In this document: piece by piece, positions 16,796 through 33,155 of the stretch
Numbering within the stretch: the first letter of the stretch is position 1
Layout: each line of letters starts with the position of its first letter
From: Janthinobacterium lividum
GTDB taxonomy: Bacteria > Pseudomonadota > Gammaproteobacteria > Burkholderiales > Burkholderiaceae_D
Direction: 5' to 3'
Length of the DNA: 33,155 nucleotides
NCBI GenBank assembly: GCA_945864765.1
Contig: CAMBDR010000001.1
Location: forward strand, 1 to 33,155
Made by a program: the position numbers and the translations under genes
Notes under the pieces: model-generated
Database searches by the model: none
Told to the model about the DNA's origin: nothing
Seen by the model: only the letters and a program-made list of their open reading frames with translations

Positions 16796-16825
16796 TTGCA
16801 GCCCGCCCGGTTGTTGGCGTAGCAT
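16796..16825 (+). promoter_or_regulatory. Candidate sigma70 promoter for the eCIS operon
   Basis: TTGCAG (16796-16801), 18 nt, then TAGCAT (16820-16825), about 30 nt upstream of the ATG at 16855. Pattern match only. Confidence 0.3.
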
Positions 16826-16854
16826 CGCCCGTACATTCATGACAGGGGGCGTTG

Positions 16855-17442
16855 ATGATTAACGATGCGATGAAATTTTTGGCAGGCCAACTGGATCAGT
16901 TTTGCAAGCATAGTTTAGGCGGGGAAGAAACGATCGCAAAAGCGGTGCATCTGGCCGAACCCGGTGACGCAGCAGGCACGCCAAAGTTGGCCTTGACCTT
17001 GGTGAATATTGAAAAAGATACCTTGCCCTACCGCCAGCGCGATTTGAGCGGTGTGCGCAGCGGGCCGGACGCCGGGCTGGCGGTGTATAGCGCGCCGCTG
17101 TACCTGAACCTGTATGTGATGCTGGCAGCCGATCCGCAAGGCGATTATGACGGGGCCTTGAAAAAAATATCGCTGGCGATCAATTTTTTTCAACTGCATC
17201 CGGTGTTTGATCACCAGACCAATCCCGACCTTGATCCAGGGATTGAAAAATTGATCCTCGATATAGCCAACCTCGGGCTGCATGATTTGCATAATGTCTG
17301 GGGTTTGTTGGGCGGCAAGTATTTGCCGTCGGTGTTCTACAAGGTGCGCATGGTGGTGGTGGATGCAAATGCGATGCTCAGGTCCGTGCCGCAGATCACC
17401 CAAATTGATAGCCAGGCCAGCGTCGTCAAGCCGGGCGTGTGA
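16855..17442 (+). CDS. eCIS tail terminator/cap protein, DUF4255 (Pvc16/Afp16 N-terminal domain)
   Basis: About 195 aa. Family-like features: MINDAMKFLAGQL, LALTLVNIEKD, LYLNLYVMLAA, NVWGLLGGKYLPSVFYKVRMVVV. AGGGGG lies 5-6 nt before the ATG at 16855 (the track uses TTG at 16852). Confidence 0.8.
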   Translation: MINDAMKFLAGQLDQFCKHSLGGEETIAKAVHLAEPGDAAGTPKLALTLVNIEKDTLPYRQRDLSGVRSGPDAGLAVYSAPLYLNLYVMLAADPQGDYDGALKKISLAINFFQLHPVFDHQTNPDLDPGIEKLILDIANLGLHDLHNVWGLLGGKYLPSVFYKVRMVVVDANAMLRSVPQITQIDSQASVVKPGV

Positions 17443-17673
17443 ATGATGCTGATCATTACATCAGTAACGACCTGAACAGTGACGCACCGCGTGTGGCGTA
17501 ATTGGTCACAGTGATTGAAAAAAATAAAAGATGAGCCAGCACATTGCGATGTTTTAAGCGTAGACTTTCGTTGGTTCGGGTGGTTATTGGCGGGTTGTGC
17601 ATGACTTTTACTGCATGGCTGTGTTGACAGGTATGTGCGGTAATGACGGTCCAAAAGGTGACCAGGAGCTGCG

Positions 17674-29916: not shown

Positions 29917-31987
29917 CGACCCGATTTTGCGCCACGGTAGCGACCCCGACGGGCTGGATTTTGCCGCCCTGCGGGCGCAGGGCATTGAGTTGGTGCAACA
30001 GCTTTGCGGCAAACAATGGACCGACTATAACCTGCATGACCCCGGCGTGACCCTGTTGGAAGCCCTGTGCTACAGCCTGACCGCTTTGGCTTATCGCACC
30101 GGCTTGCCGCTGCCCGATTATTTTATCGCCGCATCGGGCGCAATTGATTATGGAAAACTGCCATTTCTCGCACCGCAAGCCATTTTGCCGTGCCGCCCGC
30201 TCACCATTGAAGATTACGGCAAGTTTTTTTATGACGCCGTGCCGGAGATAGCTCAGATCTGGCTCGACATGACTGAGCTTGCCGCGCAGGAAAACAAGAA
30301 TTATTTGTCGATTTATATCCTGGCACACCCAGCGCCGGGCAAAATGCATGAGCGTGACGATGCAAAGGCTGCCGCTGCCGTCGCCGACAAGGTGAAAGAA
30401 CTGTTTCACGGCCAGCGCAACCTGTGTCAGGATCTGGCTTGCATCAAGGTGATTTCCACCCAACCCTATTACCTGGGTGGAAAAATTGAGATTGAAGAAA
30501 GCGCGTCGGCGGCGCAAATCTACGCCCAAATTTATCACGAATGCGCTAATTTTATCGCTTGCGCAGGCGCAATTACGCCTTACAACGCTGCCCTGGCAGA
30601 AGGCAAAAGCTGGAGCCAATTGCTGACCGGGCCGTTGACCACGAAAGGTTATGTTGCCGATCATGATTTTGCACCGCGTAGCTATAAGGTGTTCTTGTCT
30701 CAAATAATTACGTTGATCCGGCGCATTCACGGTGTAACCTCAGTCGTCGATTTGTATTTTATCCACGCGCAAGACAACCCGGCCACCGAATTGCTTTGTG
30801 ATCCCCGGCGCGACAATTTTCCGGTGCTGCAACTGCCTGCGGTTGACGAAATGGCGAAGCTGAACATCAGTCATGTCCCCAACTTCACCAGGGGCACTGG
30901 CGCGTACATTGACTTTGCCACCGAGGTGAAACTGGTCCTGGCTGCGTTAGAAATGAAGGACAGGGTGTTTCGGGTTGGTGAGAGCACGATTGACATGACA
31001 CCGCTGTTGCCGGATGCGCCGGGTGGGCGCTTGAATGATTATGTTGGCATCGCCAACGAGTTGCCGGACGGCTATGGCATCAGCCGTTATGGCGTGGCCG
31101 CGTCGGCGGGGCCCGAGGTGCGCGCCAAGGCGCGCCAGTTGAAAGGCTATTTGTATCCATTTGAACAATTAATGGCCAATTACCTGCAATGCCTGACGGA
31201 TATGCCGAACCTGTATGCGCTGGATTCTTTTCAAAAAGACGCCGTTCAAACCTATTTTTCCCAGTATTTGCAAGACCGGGAAATTCCGGGCATTGAGGAA
31301 GTCTACATTGACGAGGCCAAGCCGCCAAAACAGGGGGGCGAGAAAGTGGCGGCCATTCTGGCACGCTATGACCAAAGCAGCGAACGGCGCAATCAATTGC
31401 TCAACAGCTTGCTGGCGATGTACGGCGAAAGCTTTTTTTCCGAGGCGCTTTTTAGTGAAAAAACAGGCTATTTGAAAGGCATCGCCAATTTTACGCGCAA
31501 CCGTGGCGCGGGTATGGATTGCACCAAGGCCGATGGTGAGAGTGCGCTGCAAGCGAAGTTGCGCCTGATCCCCGGTTTGGATGCGGACAAGCTGGTCATT
31601 ATTGAGCATTTGCTGTTGCGGCCACGGGGTGCGCCACCAGCACAGCCAGCGCAGCCCGAGTATGTGAGCGCACCGGCGTGCTTATACTTGGTCGTCCACG
31701 AGCCGGCCACAGAGGCCACGCCGGCCATGACACCGGAATACAAAAACTGGCTCAAGGACAGGGTTGTGCGGCAAATTCCAGCGCATGTTTTGCCGGTGTT
31801 TTATTGGCTCAATGAAAAGGACTGGGGGAAGTTTGACAATAAATACAAAGCTTGGTTGGGCGCATTGAAGACTTATTCAAGCGCAACCGGCGCTGGAACG
31901 GCAGCAACGCCGCTCAACAGTGCAGCGCAAGCGCTGCTCGACTTGCTTAAGTTACACCAAGCTGATAATGGCGACAACTTTTTTTGA
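29906..31987 (+). CDS. Second baseplate wedge protein (Afp12-like; N-terminus like the 'putative baseplate assembly protein' family)
   Basis: 693 aa. The N-terminal WTDYNLHDPGVTLLEALCYSLTALAYR matches the W.D.N..DPG..LLE..AY..D.L.Y motif of baseplate J-type assembly proteins. Located in the baseplate block. Confidence 0.6.
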   Translation: MSASDPILRHGSDPDGLDFAALRAQGIELVQQLCGKQWTDYNLHDPGVTLLEALCYSLTALAYRTGLPLPDYFIAASGAIDYGKLPFLAPQAILPCRPLTIEDYGKFFYDAVPEIAQIWLDMTELAAQENKNYLSIYILAHPAPGKMHERDDAKAAAAVADKVKELFHGQRNLCQDLACIKVISTQPYYLGGKIEIEESASAAQIYAQIYHECANFIACAGAITPYNAALAEGKSWSQLLTGPLTTKGYVADHDFAPRSYKVFLSQIITLIRRIHGVTSVVDLYFIHAQDNPATELLCDPRRDNFPVLQLPAVDEMAKLNISHVPNFTRGTGAYIDFATEVKLVLAALEMKDRVFRVGESTIDMTPLLPDAPGGRLNDYVGIANELPDGYGISRYGVAASAGPEVRAKARQLKGYLYPFEQLMANYLQCLTDMPNLYALDSFQKDAVQTYFSQYLQDREIPGIEEVYIDEAKPPKQGGEKVAAILARYDQSSERRNQLLNSLLAMYGESFFSEALFSEKTGYLKGIANFTRNRGAGMDCTKADGESALQAKLRLIPGLDADKLVIIEHLLLRPRGAPPAQPAQPEYVSAPACLYLVVHEPATEATPAMTPEYKNWLKDRVVRQIPAHVLPVFYWLNEKDWGKFDNKYKAWLGALKTYSSATGAGTAATPLNSAAQALLDLLKLHQADNGDNFF

Positions 31988-31997
31988 TGCGCCCATC

Positions 31998-33155
31998 ATG
32001 CCAGCCCGCCATGTAATCGATGAACTAGAGTTTGATTTTTCATTCCCCGCTGGCGGCGCGGCGGCGCAGGCGCAGTCAGCTTTACCCGATTGGGTGGTTG
32101 CAGCGCTATTGCCGCTGATCGATCAGGCGCTCGATCAAAACGACACGCCCGGCGAGCTTTGGCGGATTGATCTGCTGGAAATTGATTTGGGTAGCGTGCC
32201 GCTTGAACAATACCCGCTGGAAGTCGCACGCCGTTTGTATGCGCAACTGAGTGCCGCGTTAAGTGAGCGGCGGCTGGTACGCGACCGCCCGGCGCTCTCG
32301 CCCGCTGCGCTGGCAGCCGATTTCCAGCACTTGCAACAATTTTTGCAAAGCGGCCAGCTTACCTGGCACCTTGCCGCTGATGCCGAGAATGCGCATGGCC
32401 AATTGTTGGAACGGGTATTGGTCAACATTGACACCGCCGCCCTGCATGGGCTGCTGCGTGACGAGGTGATGCAAACCCGCTTGCTGCGCCAATTTGCACC
32501 CGATCAGCTATGGGCGCTGTTGCAGCGGCTGTTGCAGCCCTGGCCGCAGCAGCAGGCACAAGCCATGCTGGCGCGTATTGCCCCGGCAATCCGCGCCGGG
32601 TTTGCGGACGAGCTTGCGCGGGCGCAATTTTGGCGGCGGATTTGGGCCGCGCTGTTGGCCGCCGCGCCAGAACAGCCCTTGCAGGCGGTGTTGCAACAGG
32701 TGCTGCCGTTGCCCGAAGCATTGCACGGGGCATTACCCGAAGCCGCGCCCGGTGCGGCAGCGGCAGCGGCAGTGGGCAGTGGCGATGCCATGTTTTTGCG
32801 CTGGTATCAGGGGCGATTGGCCTTGTCGGAACTGGGGCTGGCGGCCCCGGTGCTGCGGCAATGGGTGGACTGGTTTTTGCGCACCGACCCGGCTTGTGCC
32901 GAAAGCGATTGCAGCCTGGTGTTACAAGCGATTGATGCCCATGCCGCCCAAGCGGAGCAGGTCGCCTTGTTTTTCCAAGCGGTGCTGGCCGCGCTTTTGA
33001 GCCATCAGGTGCTTGATCTGGAAGCTTTGCTGCAAGCTGCCGACAGGCAGGCTGCCACTGCGGCAGCAGCAGCATTGCCACCCGCTGTTGCTTTGCGGGC
33101 CGGGCTGGCCGAGTTGGCCGAATCGTCGCACGGCCAAGCGCTTGCAGAGTCGGCC
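31998..33155 (+). CDS. Partial CDS (386 codons, continues past the right edge): candidate contractile-injection-system tape-measure protein (Afp14-like)
   Basis: Not in the ORF track (no stop). Hand translation: MPARHVIDELEFDFSF...GELWRIDLLEIDLGSVPLEQYPLEVARRLYAQLSAAL..., then an Ala/Leu/Gln-rich helical sequence. The IDxLEIDLG-type N-terminus matches my recollection of eCIS tape-measure proteins. An alternative in-frame ATG lies at 31968. Confidence 0.5.
   Translation, partial: MPARHVIDELEFDFSFPAGGAAAQAQSALPDWVVAALLPLIDQALDQNDTPGELWRIDLLEIDLGSVPLEQYPLEVARRLYAQLSAALSERRLVRDRPALSPAALAADFQHLQQFLQSGQLTWHLAADAENAHGQLLERVLVNIDTAALHGLLRDEVMQTRLLRQFAPDQLWALLQRLLQPWPQQQAQAMLARIAPAIRAGFADELARAQFWRRIWAALLAAAPEQPLQAVLQQVLPLPEALHGALPEAAPGAAAAAAVGSGDAMFLRWYQGRLALSELGLAAPVLRQWVDWFLRTDPACAESDCSLVLQAIDAHAAQAEQVALFFQAVLAALLSHQVLDLEALLQAADRQAATAAAAALPPAVALRAGLAELAESSHGQALAESA

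What the first reader, a model, noticed from the sequence alone, without database searches (positions are those of the whole stretch)
16796..33155. Phage-tail-like extracellular contractile injection system (eCIS) structural operon with non-Afp/PVC gene order
Sixteen co-directional, tightly packed or overlapping genes encode the parts of a contractile nanomachine. In order:
- DUF4255 cap
- an orphan protein
- one sheath
- two gp19-like tubes
- a 53-aa DUF5908-like ORF
- a LysM tube initiator
- a VgrG-like spike
- PAAR
- gp25
- a Baseplate_J-like giant protein
- a fibre
- a small repeat protein
- a second baseplate protein
- a tape-measure-like gene
The window contains no capsid, portal, terminase, integrase or holin genes, and no TssJ/L/M/K or ClpV genes. 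This argues against both a prophage and a canonical T6SS.
The order differs from Afp/PVC. The cap gene is first, there is one sheath gene rather than three, PAAR precedes gp25, and the fibre sits between the two baseplate genes.
The AAA+ assembly ATPase and the cargo/toxin genes should lie just beyond the right edge. The payload and target of this machine are therefore unknown.
Basis: partly seen in the sequence, partly recalled or inferred. Interest (0 to 1): 0.8.

Follow-up and report, generated by a model that had tools for sequence, protein, structure and literature searches.

The report
SalCIS-like contractile injection system gene cluster
This is a real phage-tail-like injection machine. 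It is an ordinary new member of a large, already described family (clade Ib, closest to the 2026 Salmonella "SalCIS"), its gene order is normal for that family, and it has a few unusual surface parts plus a previously unremarked companion methyltransferase.

Summary
From 16855 to the contig end, 15 co-directional genes encode a contractile injection system (CIS). All named parts were verified by Pfam, NCBIfam or PDB-sequence searches.

1. The "orphan" is the cap adaptor Cis16b.
2. The "fibre" is a Cis13-type protein, and its position between cis11 and cis12 is normal.
3. The gene order called "non-Afp/PVC" is the standard clade Ib order (AlgoCIS, Anabaena tCIS, SalCIS). It is identical in the 10 relatives mapped in detail, and the cis11–cis13–cis12 core recurs in more than 30 loci.
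4. The closest solved machine is SalCIS. No release was detected for SalCIS and it lies near the inner membrane, so "extracellular" is unproven here.
5. In relatives the tape measure protein is 929–2,498 aa. The ATPase, a SalCis20-like membrane protein and PF13699 effectors follow it, about 1.6–6.3 kb past the window edge. The window is a whole contig, so none of these can be seen for this organism.
6. A SAM methyltransferase just upstream (16134–16757) belongs to a CIS-linked family and extends the cluster leftwards.

Peculiar to this copy: a ~200-residue helical insertion in the sheath, a replaced low-GC distal domain on Cis13, and a compact Cis12.

Verdict: new member of a known kind, of moderate interest.

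The parts
16134..16757 (+). Class I SAM-dependent methyltransferase (207 aa). It is a cluster-linked accessory gene that lies outside the finding's coordinates.
   Evidence: Methyltransf_25/12/11. It is 55-57% identical (blastp E about 1e-83) to genes directly after cis20 in L020, L023, L025 and L040. In 22 of 34 metagenomic loci with this family, Cis20 and/or a PF13699 effector is adjacent.
16855..17442 (+). Cis16a cap protein (DUF4255/Pvc16_N, 195 aa, N-terminal domain only).
   Evidence: PF14065 at 1e-28. PDB: SalCIS cap 9r9n_B 4e-18, All3327 1e-11, AlgoCIS cap 6e-11.
17674..18438 (+).
   Evidence: Family profile A4 against the PDB: SalCis16b 9r9n_C 3e-35 over the full length, All3326 2e-11, AlgoCIS cap adaptor 7e-11. 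168 representative clusters. Syntenic ~290-aa homologues in relatives.
18456..20606 (+). Cis2 sheath (716 aa), the only sheath gene.
   Evidence: Phage_sheath_1 and Phage_sheath_1C. SalCis2 9r9h 1e-159, Alg2 3e-103, tCIS 3e-102, Pvc2 and Afp2-4 about 1e-41 to 1e-54, T4 gp18 8e-7.
18699..19325 (+). Insertion of about 200 residues, rich in Ala, Lys and Thr, within the sheath (residues ~82-290). It sits at the variable surface-loop site.
   Evidence: Typical homologues are 500-550 aa. The alignment places the extra residues at one site, shared with the Massilia sheaths of 737-739 aa. AF2 predicts helices at low confidence. GC3 is 0.50 against 0.66 in the C-terminal core. Other assemblies are identical here.
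20673..21125 (+). Cis1 inner tube protein (150 aa).
   Evidence: Phage_T4_gp19 at 3e-45. SalCIS tube 9r9h_B 9e-60, All3324 6e-52, Alg1 7e-48, Afp1 1e-25.
21136..21600 (+). Second gp19-type tube protein (154 aa), probably the Cis5 tube adaptor. The assignment is by position.
   Evidence: Phage_T4_gp19 at 7e-38. TIGR02241 at 5e-27 and CIS5_fam at 5e-21, the latter below its cutoff.
21614..21775 (+). Cis6 'plug' (DUF5908, 53 aa). A GTG lies one codon upstream.
   Evidence: PF19265 at 1e-13. The plug role is known from AlgoCIS and SalCIS (PMC8894135, PMC13266070).
21779..22468 (+). Cis7 tube initiator with a C-terminal LysM-like domain (229 aa).
   Evidence: CIS_tube PF19266 at 2e-36; LysM at 0.003, below the Pfam cutoff.
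22489..24279 (+). Cis8 VgrG-like spike (596 aa).
   Evidence: Phage_base_V at 2e-21 and Phage_GPD. TIGR01646 vgr_GE at 1e-53.
24298..24597 (+). Cis10 PAAR tip (99 aa).
   Evidence: PAAR_motif at 2e-24.
24736..25146 (+). Cis9 gp25-like baseplate wedge (136 aa).
   Evidence: GPW_gp25 at 1e-22. TssE at 3e-6, below its cutoff.
25168..28863 (+). Cis11 (gp6/Baseplate-J-like) cage-forming baseplate protein (1231 aa).
   Evidence: No Pfam hit. PDB: SalCis11 1e-105, All3317 2e-63, Alg11 8e-57, Pvc11 1e-14, Afp11 1e-11. TIGR02243 C-terminal part at 2.5e-6, below its cutoff.
28885..29598 (+). Cis13 tail-fibre-like protein (237 aa). It has a conserved N-terminal baseplate-docking domain, a fibre motif, and a unique low-GC distal domain (residues 115-237).
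   Evidence: Family profile A1 against the PDB: tCIS Cis13 (All3316) 7e-7, Bdellovibrio fibre 8ond 2e-8. N-terminal HMM 2e-19, C-terminal HMM no match. No tblastn hit for residues 115-237. GC 0.40. No TM helix.
29608..29916 (+). Conserved small protein of unknown role (102 aa), an internal duplication of a ~45-aa unit.
   Evidence: Homologues at the same position in 27 loci, with a single-unit 56-58-aa form in Saprospiraceae. The two halves share 58% identity over 19 aa, E = 2e-6. No Pfam, NCBIfam or PHROG hit.
29906..31987 (+). Cis12 (gp6/7-like) baseplate protein (693 aa), a compact form.
   Evidence: PDB: Alg12 3e-50, All3315 8e-38, SalCis12 2e-37, Pvc12 8e-18, Afp12 3e-15. Relatives are mostly 820-1047 aa; a ~125-aa internal segment is missing here.
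31998..33155 (+). Cis14 tape measure protein: the N-terminal 386 aa only, cut by the contig end.
   Evidence: PF19268 CIS_TMP at 2e-28, model positions 1-240 of 463. Full-length relatives are 929-2,498 aa.

Best explanation
The window carries the structural operon of a clade Ib contractile injection system. Its closest characterised relative is SalCIS of Salmonella enterica subsp. salamae.

Inferred from homology to solved machines:
1. A VgrG trimer (Cis8), sharpened by PAAR (Cis10) and plugged by Cis6, sits in a baseplate built from the Cis7 LysM initiator, gp25 (Cis9) and a Cis11/Cis12 cage.
2. Cis13 trimers dock on this baseplate through their N-terminal domain.
3. The tape measure protein (Cis14) sets the length of a Cis5/Cis1 tube.
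4. A single sheath protein (Cis2) wraps the tube, and a double cap (Cis16a plus the Cis16b adaptor) closes it.
5. Sheath contraction drives the tube and spike into a membrane.

Inferred from syntenic relatives only:
6. The tape measure protein is very long, so the particle should be several hundred nm long, as SalCIS is.
7. It is followed by an AAA+ ATPase (Cis15), a SalCis20-like membrane protein, and PF13699/HEXXH cargo.

The SAM methyltransferase just upstream belongs to a family that normally sits between cis20 and the cargo gene, and it is probably part of the system. Whether particles are released or fire while attached to the producer's envelope is open. Surface parts are mosaic in this copy: the sheath insertion and the Cis13 distal domain.
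For: - Pfam and NCBIfam confirm cap, sheath, two tube proteins, DUF5908, CIS_tube/LysM, VgrG, PAAR, gp25 and CIS_TMP.
- The best PDB sequence match is SalCIS for five parts: sheath 1e-159, tube 9e-60, Cis11 1e-105, cap 4e-18, and Cis16b profile 3e-35. AlgoCIS and tCIS come next; Afp and PVC are far weaker.
- The Cis13 family profile hits the N-terminal domain of tCIS Cis13.
- Gene order from sheath to tape measure is identical in the 10 relatives mapped in detail, from Undibacterium, Duganella, Nitrosomonas and Burkholderiales. The cis11-cis13-cis12 core recurs in more than 30 loci. The cap is the first gene in relatives, with unrelated genes upstream.
- In relatives, the tape measure protein is followed by an AAA ATPase (PF00004, 6e-28), then a SalCis20 homologue (9r9a, 2e-17), then PF13699 effectors.
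- Methyltransferase linkage.
- No phage head, integrase or T6SS membrane-complex genes occur in the window.
Against: - The ATPase, Cis20 and cargo are not in the window, and the contig ends inside cis14. Their presence in this organism is an extrapolation.
- Cis12 matches AlgoCIS Alg12 better than SalCis12.
- The Cis13 distal domain conserved in relatives is replaced here, and the methyltransferase is relocated. The Cis20 module could therefore be rearranged or missing.
- No expression or particle data exist.
- Only the sequence-level relationship to SalCIS was tested. The SalCis11 domain IV extension and the sheath X-loop were not.
Confidence: 0.88

Rival explanations
1. It is a true extracellular CIS. 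Particles are released by cell lysis, bind a foreign target cell through the Cis13 distal domain, and inject PF13699-type toxins, as AlgoCIS, Afp and PVC do.
For: [quoted passage not shown]
- The window's Cis13 has no TM helix.
- Its distal domain has been swapped and is compositionally foreign. That is the typical behaviour of receptor-binding tips.
- The PDB profile hits adhesive fibre proteins.
Against: - The closest characterised relative, SalCIS, showed no detectable release and sat next to the inner membrane (PMC13266070).
- Relatives encode a SalCis20-like membrane protein.
- No holin or lysis gene is seen in the window or in the relatives' clusters.
Confidence: 0.4
2. It is a cell-anchored, T6SSiv/SalCIS-like mode. 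Long particles assemble in the cytoplasm, contact the inner membrane through Cis13 and a Cis20-type membrane protein, and fire outwards through the producer's own envelope.
For: - SalCIS is the best match for the sheath, tube, Cis11 and both cap proteins.
- SalCis20 homologues follow the ATPase in relatives.
- Giant tape measure proteins match the 600-700 nm SalCIS particles seen near the inner membrane (PMC13266070).
Against: - Cis20 is not visible for this organism.
- The window's Cis13 lacks the C-terminal domain that is conserved in relatives.
- The anchoring model is itself a hypothesis in the SalCIS paper.
Confidence: 0.45
3. It is a defective prophage tail module or an R-type tailocin.
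For: The sheath, tube, baseplate and tape measure proteins derive from phage tails. Weak similarity to T4 gp18 (8e-7) and the pyocin sheath (2e-4) exists.
Against: - There are no capsid, portal, terminase, integrase or lysis genes in 33 kb.
- CIS-specific parts are present: DUF4255 cap, Cis16b, DUF5908, CIS_tube and CIS_TMP.
- Similarity to CIS structures is more than 100 orders of magnitude stronger in E-value.
- Relatives carry the CIS ATPase and PF13699 effectors.
Confidence: 0.02
4. It is a canonical T6SS (subtypes i-iii).
For: VgrG, PAAR and gp25/TssE-like proteins are shared with the T6SS.
Against: - No TssJ/L/M, TssK, TssA, TssB/C-type sheath or ClpV is present.
- The sheath is the phage/CIS type.
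- A tape measure protein, cap and LysM initiator are present.
Confidence: 0.01

Closest known systems
SalCIS of Salmonella enterica subsp. salamae (Ejaz et al., Nat Commun 2026; PDB 9R9H, 9R9N, 9RCE, 9R9A)
   Same: - Best PDB match for the sheath, tube, Cis11, cap and cap adaptor.
- Single sheath gene, with the cap as the first gene.
- Double cap, plug, LysM initiator and Cis11/Cis12 cage.
- Relatives of the window share a SalCis20 homologue, an AAA ATPase, HEXXH/PF13699 cargo and very long tape measure proteins.
   Different: - The sheath is about 200 residues longer (716 against 519 aa).
- Cis12 is closer to Alg12 than to SalCis12.
- The window cluster reads in one direction as far as it is visible, whereas SalCIS is bidirectional with the ATPase and cargo placed apart.
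- A linked methyltransferase is present; the SalCIS paper does not mention one.
- Cis20, the ATPase and the cargo are unseen here.
AlgoCIS of Algoriphagus machipongonensis (clade Ib eCIS; PDB 7ADZ, 7AEB)
   Same: - Cap plus cap adaptor, plug, spike cage and single sheath.
- Strong matches for Alg2, Alg1, Alg11 and Alg12 (3e-103, 7e-48, 8e-57, 3e-50).
   Different: - The AlgoCIS sheath measures about 92 nm (PMC8894135), whereas relatives of the window encode tape measure proteins of 929-2,498 aa.
- AlgoCIS behaves as a released eCIS.
- The host is a Bacteroidota, not a betaproteobacterium.
Thylakoid-anchored CIS (tCIS) of Anabaena sp. PCC 7120 (PDB 7B5H, 7B5I)
   Same: - Same gene order: all3327 down to all3315.
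- Cis13 encoded between cis11 and cis12, with a homologous N-terminal docking domain.
- Cap adaptor present.
   Different: - tCIS Cis13 ends in a transmembrane helix that anchors it to the thylakoid; the window's Cis13 has none.
- tCIS has Cis19 and a large Cis12 extension; the window's Cis12 is compact.
Afp and PVC (clade Ia eCIS; PDB 6RAO, 6J0N)
   Same: The core parts are homologous: sheath, tube, VgrG, PAAR, gp25, Afp11/12, tape measure and the DUF4255 cap domain.
   Different: - Afp and PVC have three sheath paralogues, a two-domain cap encoded last, no cap adaptor and a different gene order.
- Sequence similarity is much weaker (for example Afp11 1e-11 against SalCis11 1e-105).
T6SS subtype iv of Amoebophilus asiaticus
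   Same: It is in the same clade Ib according to the literature. It lacks TssJLM yet is cell-anchored, and it has a Cis13-like protein and a compact baseplate (PMC13266070).
   Different: It forms bundles in an amoeba symbiont.

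Membership tests
Clade Ib CIS (AlgoCIS / tCIS / SalCIS group) | A single sheath protein most similar to Alg2, tCIS Cis2 or SalCis2 rather than to Afp2-4 or Pvc2-4. 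| tested here: met
   One sheath gene. SalCis2 1e-159, Alg2 3e-103, All3325 3e-102, against Pvc2 3e-54 and Afp2 9e-50.
Clade Ib CIS (AlgoCIS / tCIS / SalCIS group) | A double cap: a short one-domain cap (Cis16a) plus a separate cap adaptor (Cis16b). | tested here: met
   The 195-aa Pvc16_N-only cap. Cis16b profile against SalCis16b 3e-35, All3326 2e-11, Alg16B 7e-11.
Clade Ib CIS (AlgoCIS / tCIS / SalCIS group) | A plug protein (Cis6/DUF5908) and cage-forming extended Cis11 and Cis12. | tested here: met
   DUF5908 at 1e-13. The 1231-aa Cis11 aligns with SalCis11, All3317 and Alg11, and Cis12 aligns with Alg12. The cage geometry itself is inferred.
SalCIS-type cluster (Ejaz et al. 2026) | A SalCis20 integral membrane protein with a hydrolase-like periplasmic domain encoded in the cluster. 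| not testable with these tools
   The contig ends inside cis14. Relatives do have it after the ATPase: L021 against 9r9a at 2e-17, and 20 metagenomic loci.
SalCIS-type cluster (Ejaz et al. 2026) | A SalCis13-like trimeric fibre or anchor protein. | tested here: inconclusive
   The N-terminal domain is homologous to tCIS Cis13. SalCis13 has no PDB sequence to compare. The window's distal domain differs from that of all relatives.
SalCIS-type cluster (Ejaz et al. 2026) | The extended domain IV of SalCis11 (residues 419-549). | not tested
   The best aligned stretch starts after that region (window 440-1231 against SalCis11 560-1312). PDB searches were exhausted before a residue-level check.
SalCIS-type cluster (Ejaz et al. 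2026) | A SalCgo2-like HEXXH effector in the cluster. | not testable with these tools
   None is in the window. Relatives carry PF13699/HEXXH proteins after cis20 or the methyltransferase.
Afp/PVC-type eCIS (clade Ia) | Three sheath paralogues, a two-domain Afp16 cap encoded at the end, and Afp gene order. | tested here: not met
   One sheath gene, a short cap encoded first, and PAAR before gp25.
Extracellular mode of action (eCIS in the strict sense) | Particles are released from the producer and act on targets from outside. | not testable with these tools
   This needs EM of supernatants and cryo-ET. Relatives in the clade use three different modes (PMC8894135, PMC8894136, PMC13266070).
Canonical T6SS | TssJ/L/M membrane complex, TssK, TssB/C sheath and ClpV. 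| tested here: not met
   Pfam of all window ORFs shows none.
Prophage or tailocin | Capsid, portal, terminase and integrase genes, or a holin/endolysin cassette. | tested here: not met
   None in the window, nor in the visible parts of relatives' clusters.
Pfam Baseplate_J (PF04865) | An hmmscan hit of the 1231-aa protein to the Pfam model. | tested here: not met
   No Pfam family at E <= 0.01. Homology to 'Baseplate protein J-like' Cis11 and Afp11 chains is nevertheless clear.

The most novel reading that the evidence does not exclude
The ~207-aa SAM-dependent methyltransferase is an undescribed, functionally integrated accessory of SalCIS-type injection systems. In other genomes its family sits between cis20 and the PF13699 cargo gene. 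It might methylate the cargo or a machine component, or be a cargo itself. This particular cluster is also a mosaic variant whose exposed surfaces have been exchanged: a ~200-residue helical decoration on every sheath subunit, and a foreign low-GC Cis13 tip. Together with the relocated methyltransferase, this could mark a changed target or a changed anchoring mode relative to SalCIS.
Probability: 0.35. Interest if true: 0.55.

Novelty: new member of a known kind. Interest (0 to 1): 0.35.

Why it matters
CIS machines are being engineered as programmable protein-delivery devices, and the SalCIS branch was first described structurally in 2026. This cluster adds a divergent betaproteobacterial member and shows three things:
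1. The branch is very large in environmental Betaproteobacteria, with more than 6,800 sheath relatives.
2. Its exposed parts are hot spots for exchange: the sheath surface loop, the Cis13 tip and the middle of Cis12.
3. A specific methyltransferase family travels with it.

The first two points are useful for retargeting or decorating particles. The third gives a concrete, testable accessory function. As a discovery of a new kind of system it does not qualify, because the architecture and gene order are the known clade Ib ones.

Tried and rejected
- Exact-protein look-up of Cis12 found nothing. Look-ups of PAAR, the sheath and the second tube protein found only 1-8 kb contigs of the same organism that end inside the cluster. 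The window's downstream region could not be obtained.
- The self-hit of Cis13 shows the window is a complete 33,155-bp contig.
- Word-indexed homologue searches with Cis16b and Cis13 returned only the query. I replaced them with an exhaustive HMMER search and with locus-derived alignments.
- The single-sequence AF2 model of Cis13 was unusable (pLDDT 33), so no fold search was run on it.
- The sheath AF2 model is confident only in the conserved core. The insertion is helical at pLDDT 30-56, so nothing beyond 'probably helical or flexible' is claimed.
- The first metagenome scan with the single methyltransferase sequence found nothing. The alignment-based rescan worked.
- The idea that the contig ends because the tape measure gene is repetitive was rejected: there are no DNA tandem repeats in the tape measure genes of relatives.
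- Promoter and terminator scans were at background level.
- Rfam found nothing in the window.
- The 102-aa protein has no Pfam, NCBIfam or PHROG match.
- The supplementary operon list of the SalCIS paper is not held. I could not check whether these genera are already in its 'SalCIS cluster'.

Full report
**Observation**

ORF listing and translation show 15 co-directional + strand genes from 16855 to the end of the window. Spacers are 0-232 bp, or the genes overlap slightly. Pfam confirms the following:
- cap (Pvc16_N/DUF4255, 1e-28);
- sheath (Phage_sheath_1 and Phage_sheath_1C);
- two gp19-type tube proteins (3e-45, 7e-38);
- DUF5908 (1e-13);
- CIS_tube with a weak LysM;
- VgrG (Phage_base_V 2e-21, Phage_GPD);
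- PAAR (2e-24);
- gp25 (1e-22);
- the N-terminal half of CIS_TMP for the truncated last ORF (2e-28).

NCBIfam adds VgrG TIGR01646 at 1e-53 and TIGR02241 for both tube proteins. The 1231-aa and 693-aa proteins have no Pfam hit. They match solved Cis11 and Cis12 chains: SalCis11 1e-105, All3317 2e-63, Alg11 8e-57, Afp11 1e-11; Alg12 3e-50, All3315 8e-38, SalCis12 2e-37, Afp12 3e-15. Two other assemblies of the same organism agree with the window at 99.7-100% identity without indels. The gene count inside the stated coordinates is 15, not 16.

**The two unassigned proteins**

The 254-aa "orphan" between cap and sheath gave only E = 0.007 to SalCis16b as a single sequence. An exhaustive HMMER search found 168 representative clusters of full-length relatives. 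A profile of 48 of them matches SalCis16b over its whole length at 3e-35, the Anabaena All3326 protein at 2e-11 and the AlgoCIS cap adaptor at 7e-11. Syntenic ~290-aa homologues lie between cap and sheath in Undibacterium and Nitrosomonas. It is the cap adaptor Cis16b. In both AlgoCIS and SalCIS this protein is required for proper sheath assembly (PMC8894135, PMC13266070).

The 237-aa "fibre" has homologues between cis11 and cis12 in 33 of the 49 related loci. The family profile hits the N-terminal baseplate-binding domain of tCIS Cis13 (All3316, 7e-7) and the trimeric fibre repeat of Bdellovibrio fibres (8ond, 2e-8). It also gives faint matches to AfpX13 and a PVC fibre. So it is a Cis13-type fibre-like protein.

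**What kind of CIS**

For the sheath (1e-159), tube (9e-60), Cis11, cap and cap adaptor, the best solved match is SalCIS of Salmonella enterica subsp. salamae. AlgoCIS and the Anabaena thylakoid-anchored CIS come next, and Afp/PVC are far behind. The literature places these three systems in clade Ib (PMC13266070).

The Anabaena locus tags that my searches hit run consecutively from all3327 (cap) through all3326, all3325, all3324, all3323, all3317 and all3316 to all3315 (Cis12). That is the window's order.

A scan of GTDB representative genomes with Cis12 returned 49 loci, with best identity 40%, from Undibacterium, Duganella, Nitrosomonas, other Burkholderiales, Saprospiraceae and others. Gene order from sheath to tape measure is identical in the 10 relatives I mapped in detail, and the cis11-cis13-cis12 core recurs in more than 30 loci. 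The sheath family alone has more than 6,800 members at E <= 1e-30.

**Beyond the right edge**

The window is an entire contig, and no longer assembly of this organism was found. In 23 relatives the tape measure protein is 929-2,498 aa, with a median of 1,721; the window holds 386 aa. Downstream of it in relatives come:
1. a ~450-aa AAA+ ATPase (PF00004, 6e-28);
2. an 850-1,080-aa protein with a hydrophobic N-terminus, which matches PDB 9R9A (SalCis20) at 2e-17;
3. PF13699 (eCIS_core, formerly DUF4157) HEXXH proteins.

They should lie roughly 1.6-6.3 kb further on, and a SalCis20-type membrane protein is expected too. The long tape measure proteins fit the 600-700 nm SalCIS particles (PMC13266070).

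**An overlooked cluster gene**

The methyltransferase just upstream of the cap (16134-16757; Methyltransf_25) is 55-57% identical to genes located directly after cis20 in four relatives. That is the same conservation level as the core CIS proteins. An alignment-based metagenome scan found 34 loci with this family. In 22 of them Cis20 lies immediately upstream and/or a PF13699 effector immediately downstream. Nine of the other 12 are contigs shorter than 5 kb. It is a generic class I SAM methyltransferase with no specific family assignment. The word "methyltransferase" does not occur in the main eCIS survey and structure papers held. In the window it has moved to the front of the operon.

A close relative of the host shares the amino-acid ABC transporter and the BcsE-like/GT2/deacetylase genes but has no CIS there. 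The cluster is therefore variably present.

**Features peculiar to this copy**

1. The sheath is 716 aa against the usual 500-550. The extra ~200 residues are rich in Ala, Lys and Thr and form one insertion after residue ~80, at the variable surface site. A few Massilia sheaths are also expanded there with unrelated sequence. AF2 predicts helices at low confidence.
2. Only the N-terminal ~114 residues of Cis13 match its family (HMM 2e-19). The distal 123 residues match nothing in any locus, and they do not match the HMM of the relatives' conserved C-terminal domain. The gene has GC 0.40-0.43 against 0.56 for the cluster. It has no transmembrane helix, unlike tCIS Cis13.
3. Cis12 lacks a ~125-aa internal segment.
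4. A conserved 102-aa protein of unknown role lies between cis13 and cis12. It is an internal duplication of a unit that occurs singly in Saprospiraceae.

**Mechanism and mode**

By homology with solved machines the parts assemble into a baseplate with a VgrG-PAAR spike, a tube whose length is set by the tape measure protein, a contractile sheath and a double cap. Contraction expels the tube and spike.

Whether the particles are released is not decidable from sequence. AlgoCIS behaves as an eCIS. tCIS is anchored by the Cis13 transmembrane helix. SalCIS showed no detectable release and lies at the inner membrane (PMC8894135, PMC8894136, PMC13266070). The swapped Cis13 tip argues mildly for target recognition. 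The SalCIS affinity and the Cis20 genes of relatives argue for envelope association. I rate the two modes about equal.

The prophage/tailocin and canonical T6SS readings are excluded by the gene content of the window and of relatives.

**Verdict**

This is a genuine CIS cluster and a new member of the known clade Ib/SalCIS-like kind. Its claim of an unusual architecture and its "extracellular" label are not supported as stated. Residual interest lies in the linked methyltransferase and the mosaic surface parts.

Noticed in passing
window 6860-14030 (+): An exopolysaccharide-type gene set: a BcsE-like protein (PF10995, 5e-71), a TPR/outer-membrane-like protein, a PgaC-like GT2 synthase, a 72-aa membrane peptide and a polysaccharide deacetylase. 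BcsE is normally a cellulose-system c-di-GMP protein, so its pairing with a PGA-like synthase is unusual. The set is syntenic in a close relative (L092).
   Followed up: partly
window 14035-15994 (+): A MacB/FtsX-type permease plus an ABC ATPase lie between the exopolysaccharide genes and the methyltransferase/CIS cluster. The close relative L092 lacks this pair as well as the CIS. The whole stretch 14035-33155 may be one variable island.
   Followed up: partly
window 24672-24720: Perfect 9-bp tandem repeats (ATGGATACG x3.7, then TGGATGTGG x2.3) in the PAAR-gp25 spacer. They create an alternative upstream ATG for gp25 at 24703. The repeats are identical in two other assemblies of the organism.
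   Followed up: partly
window 17443-17673: An unusually long (232 bp), low-GC (0.47) spacer between the cap and cap-adaptor genes. Relatives have 10-94 bp here. It could hold an internal promoter or a regulatory element. There is no Rfam match.
   Followed up: no
window 20627-20649: A GC-rich hairpin followed by a T-run in the 63-bp spacer after the sheath gene. It may be an attenuator that sets the sheath:tube expression ratio. It comes from a consensus scan only, and that scan was at background level overall.
   Followed up: no
window 28885-29598: The whole Cis13 gene has GC 0.40-0.43 (GC3 0.41-0.47) against about 0.56 (GC3 about 0.70) for neighbouring genes. This suggests recent acquisition from a lower-GC donor.
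   Followed up: yes
window 1-1609 (-): A KptA/Tpt1 RNA 2'-phosphotransferase (1067-1609, PF01885 2e-49) lies next to a partial TPR-repeat protein with repeated 'AQQNFAAYG' motifs that runs off the left end of the contig.
   Followed up: no
L010 19923-21068; L085 8453-15529: Relatives show module shuffling at the cargo end. L010 has an extra 381-aa membrane protein between cis20 and the effector. L085 places the effector and methyltransferase between cis12 and the tape measure gene.
   Followed up: no
L055 1-443: In Undibacterium sp. TJN19 a 41%-identical copy of the methyltransferase lies about 8 kb upstream of the cap gene, separated from it by lipid-metabolism genes. The linkage to the CIS is looser there.
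   Followed up: no
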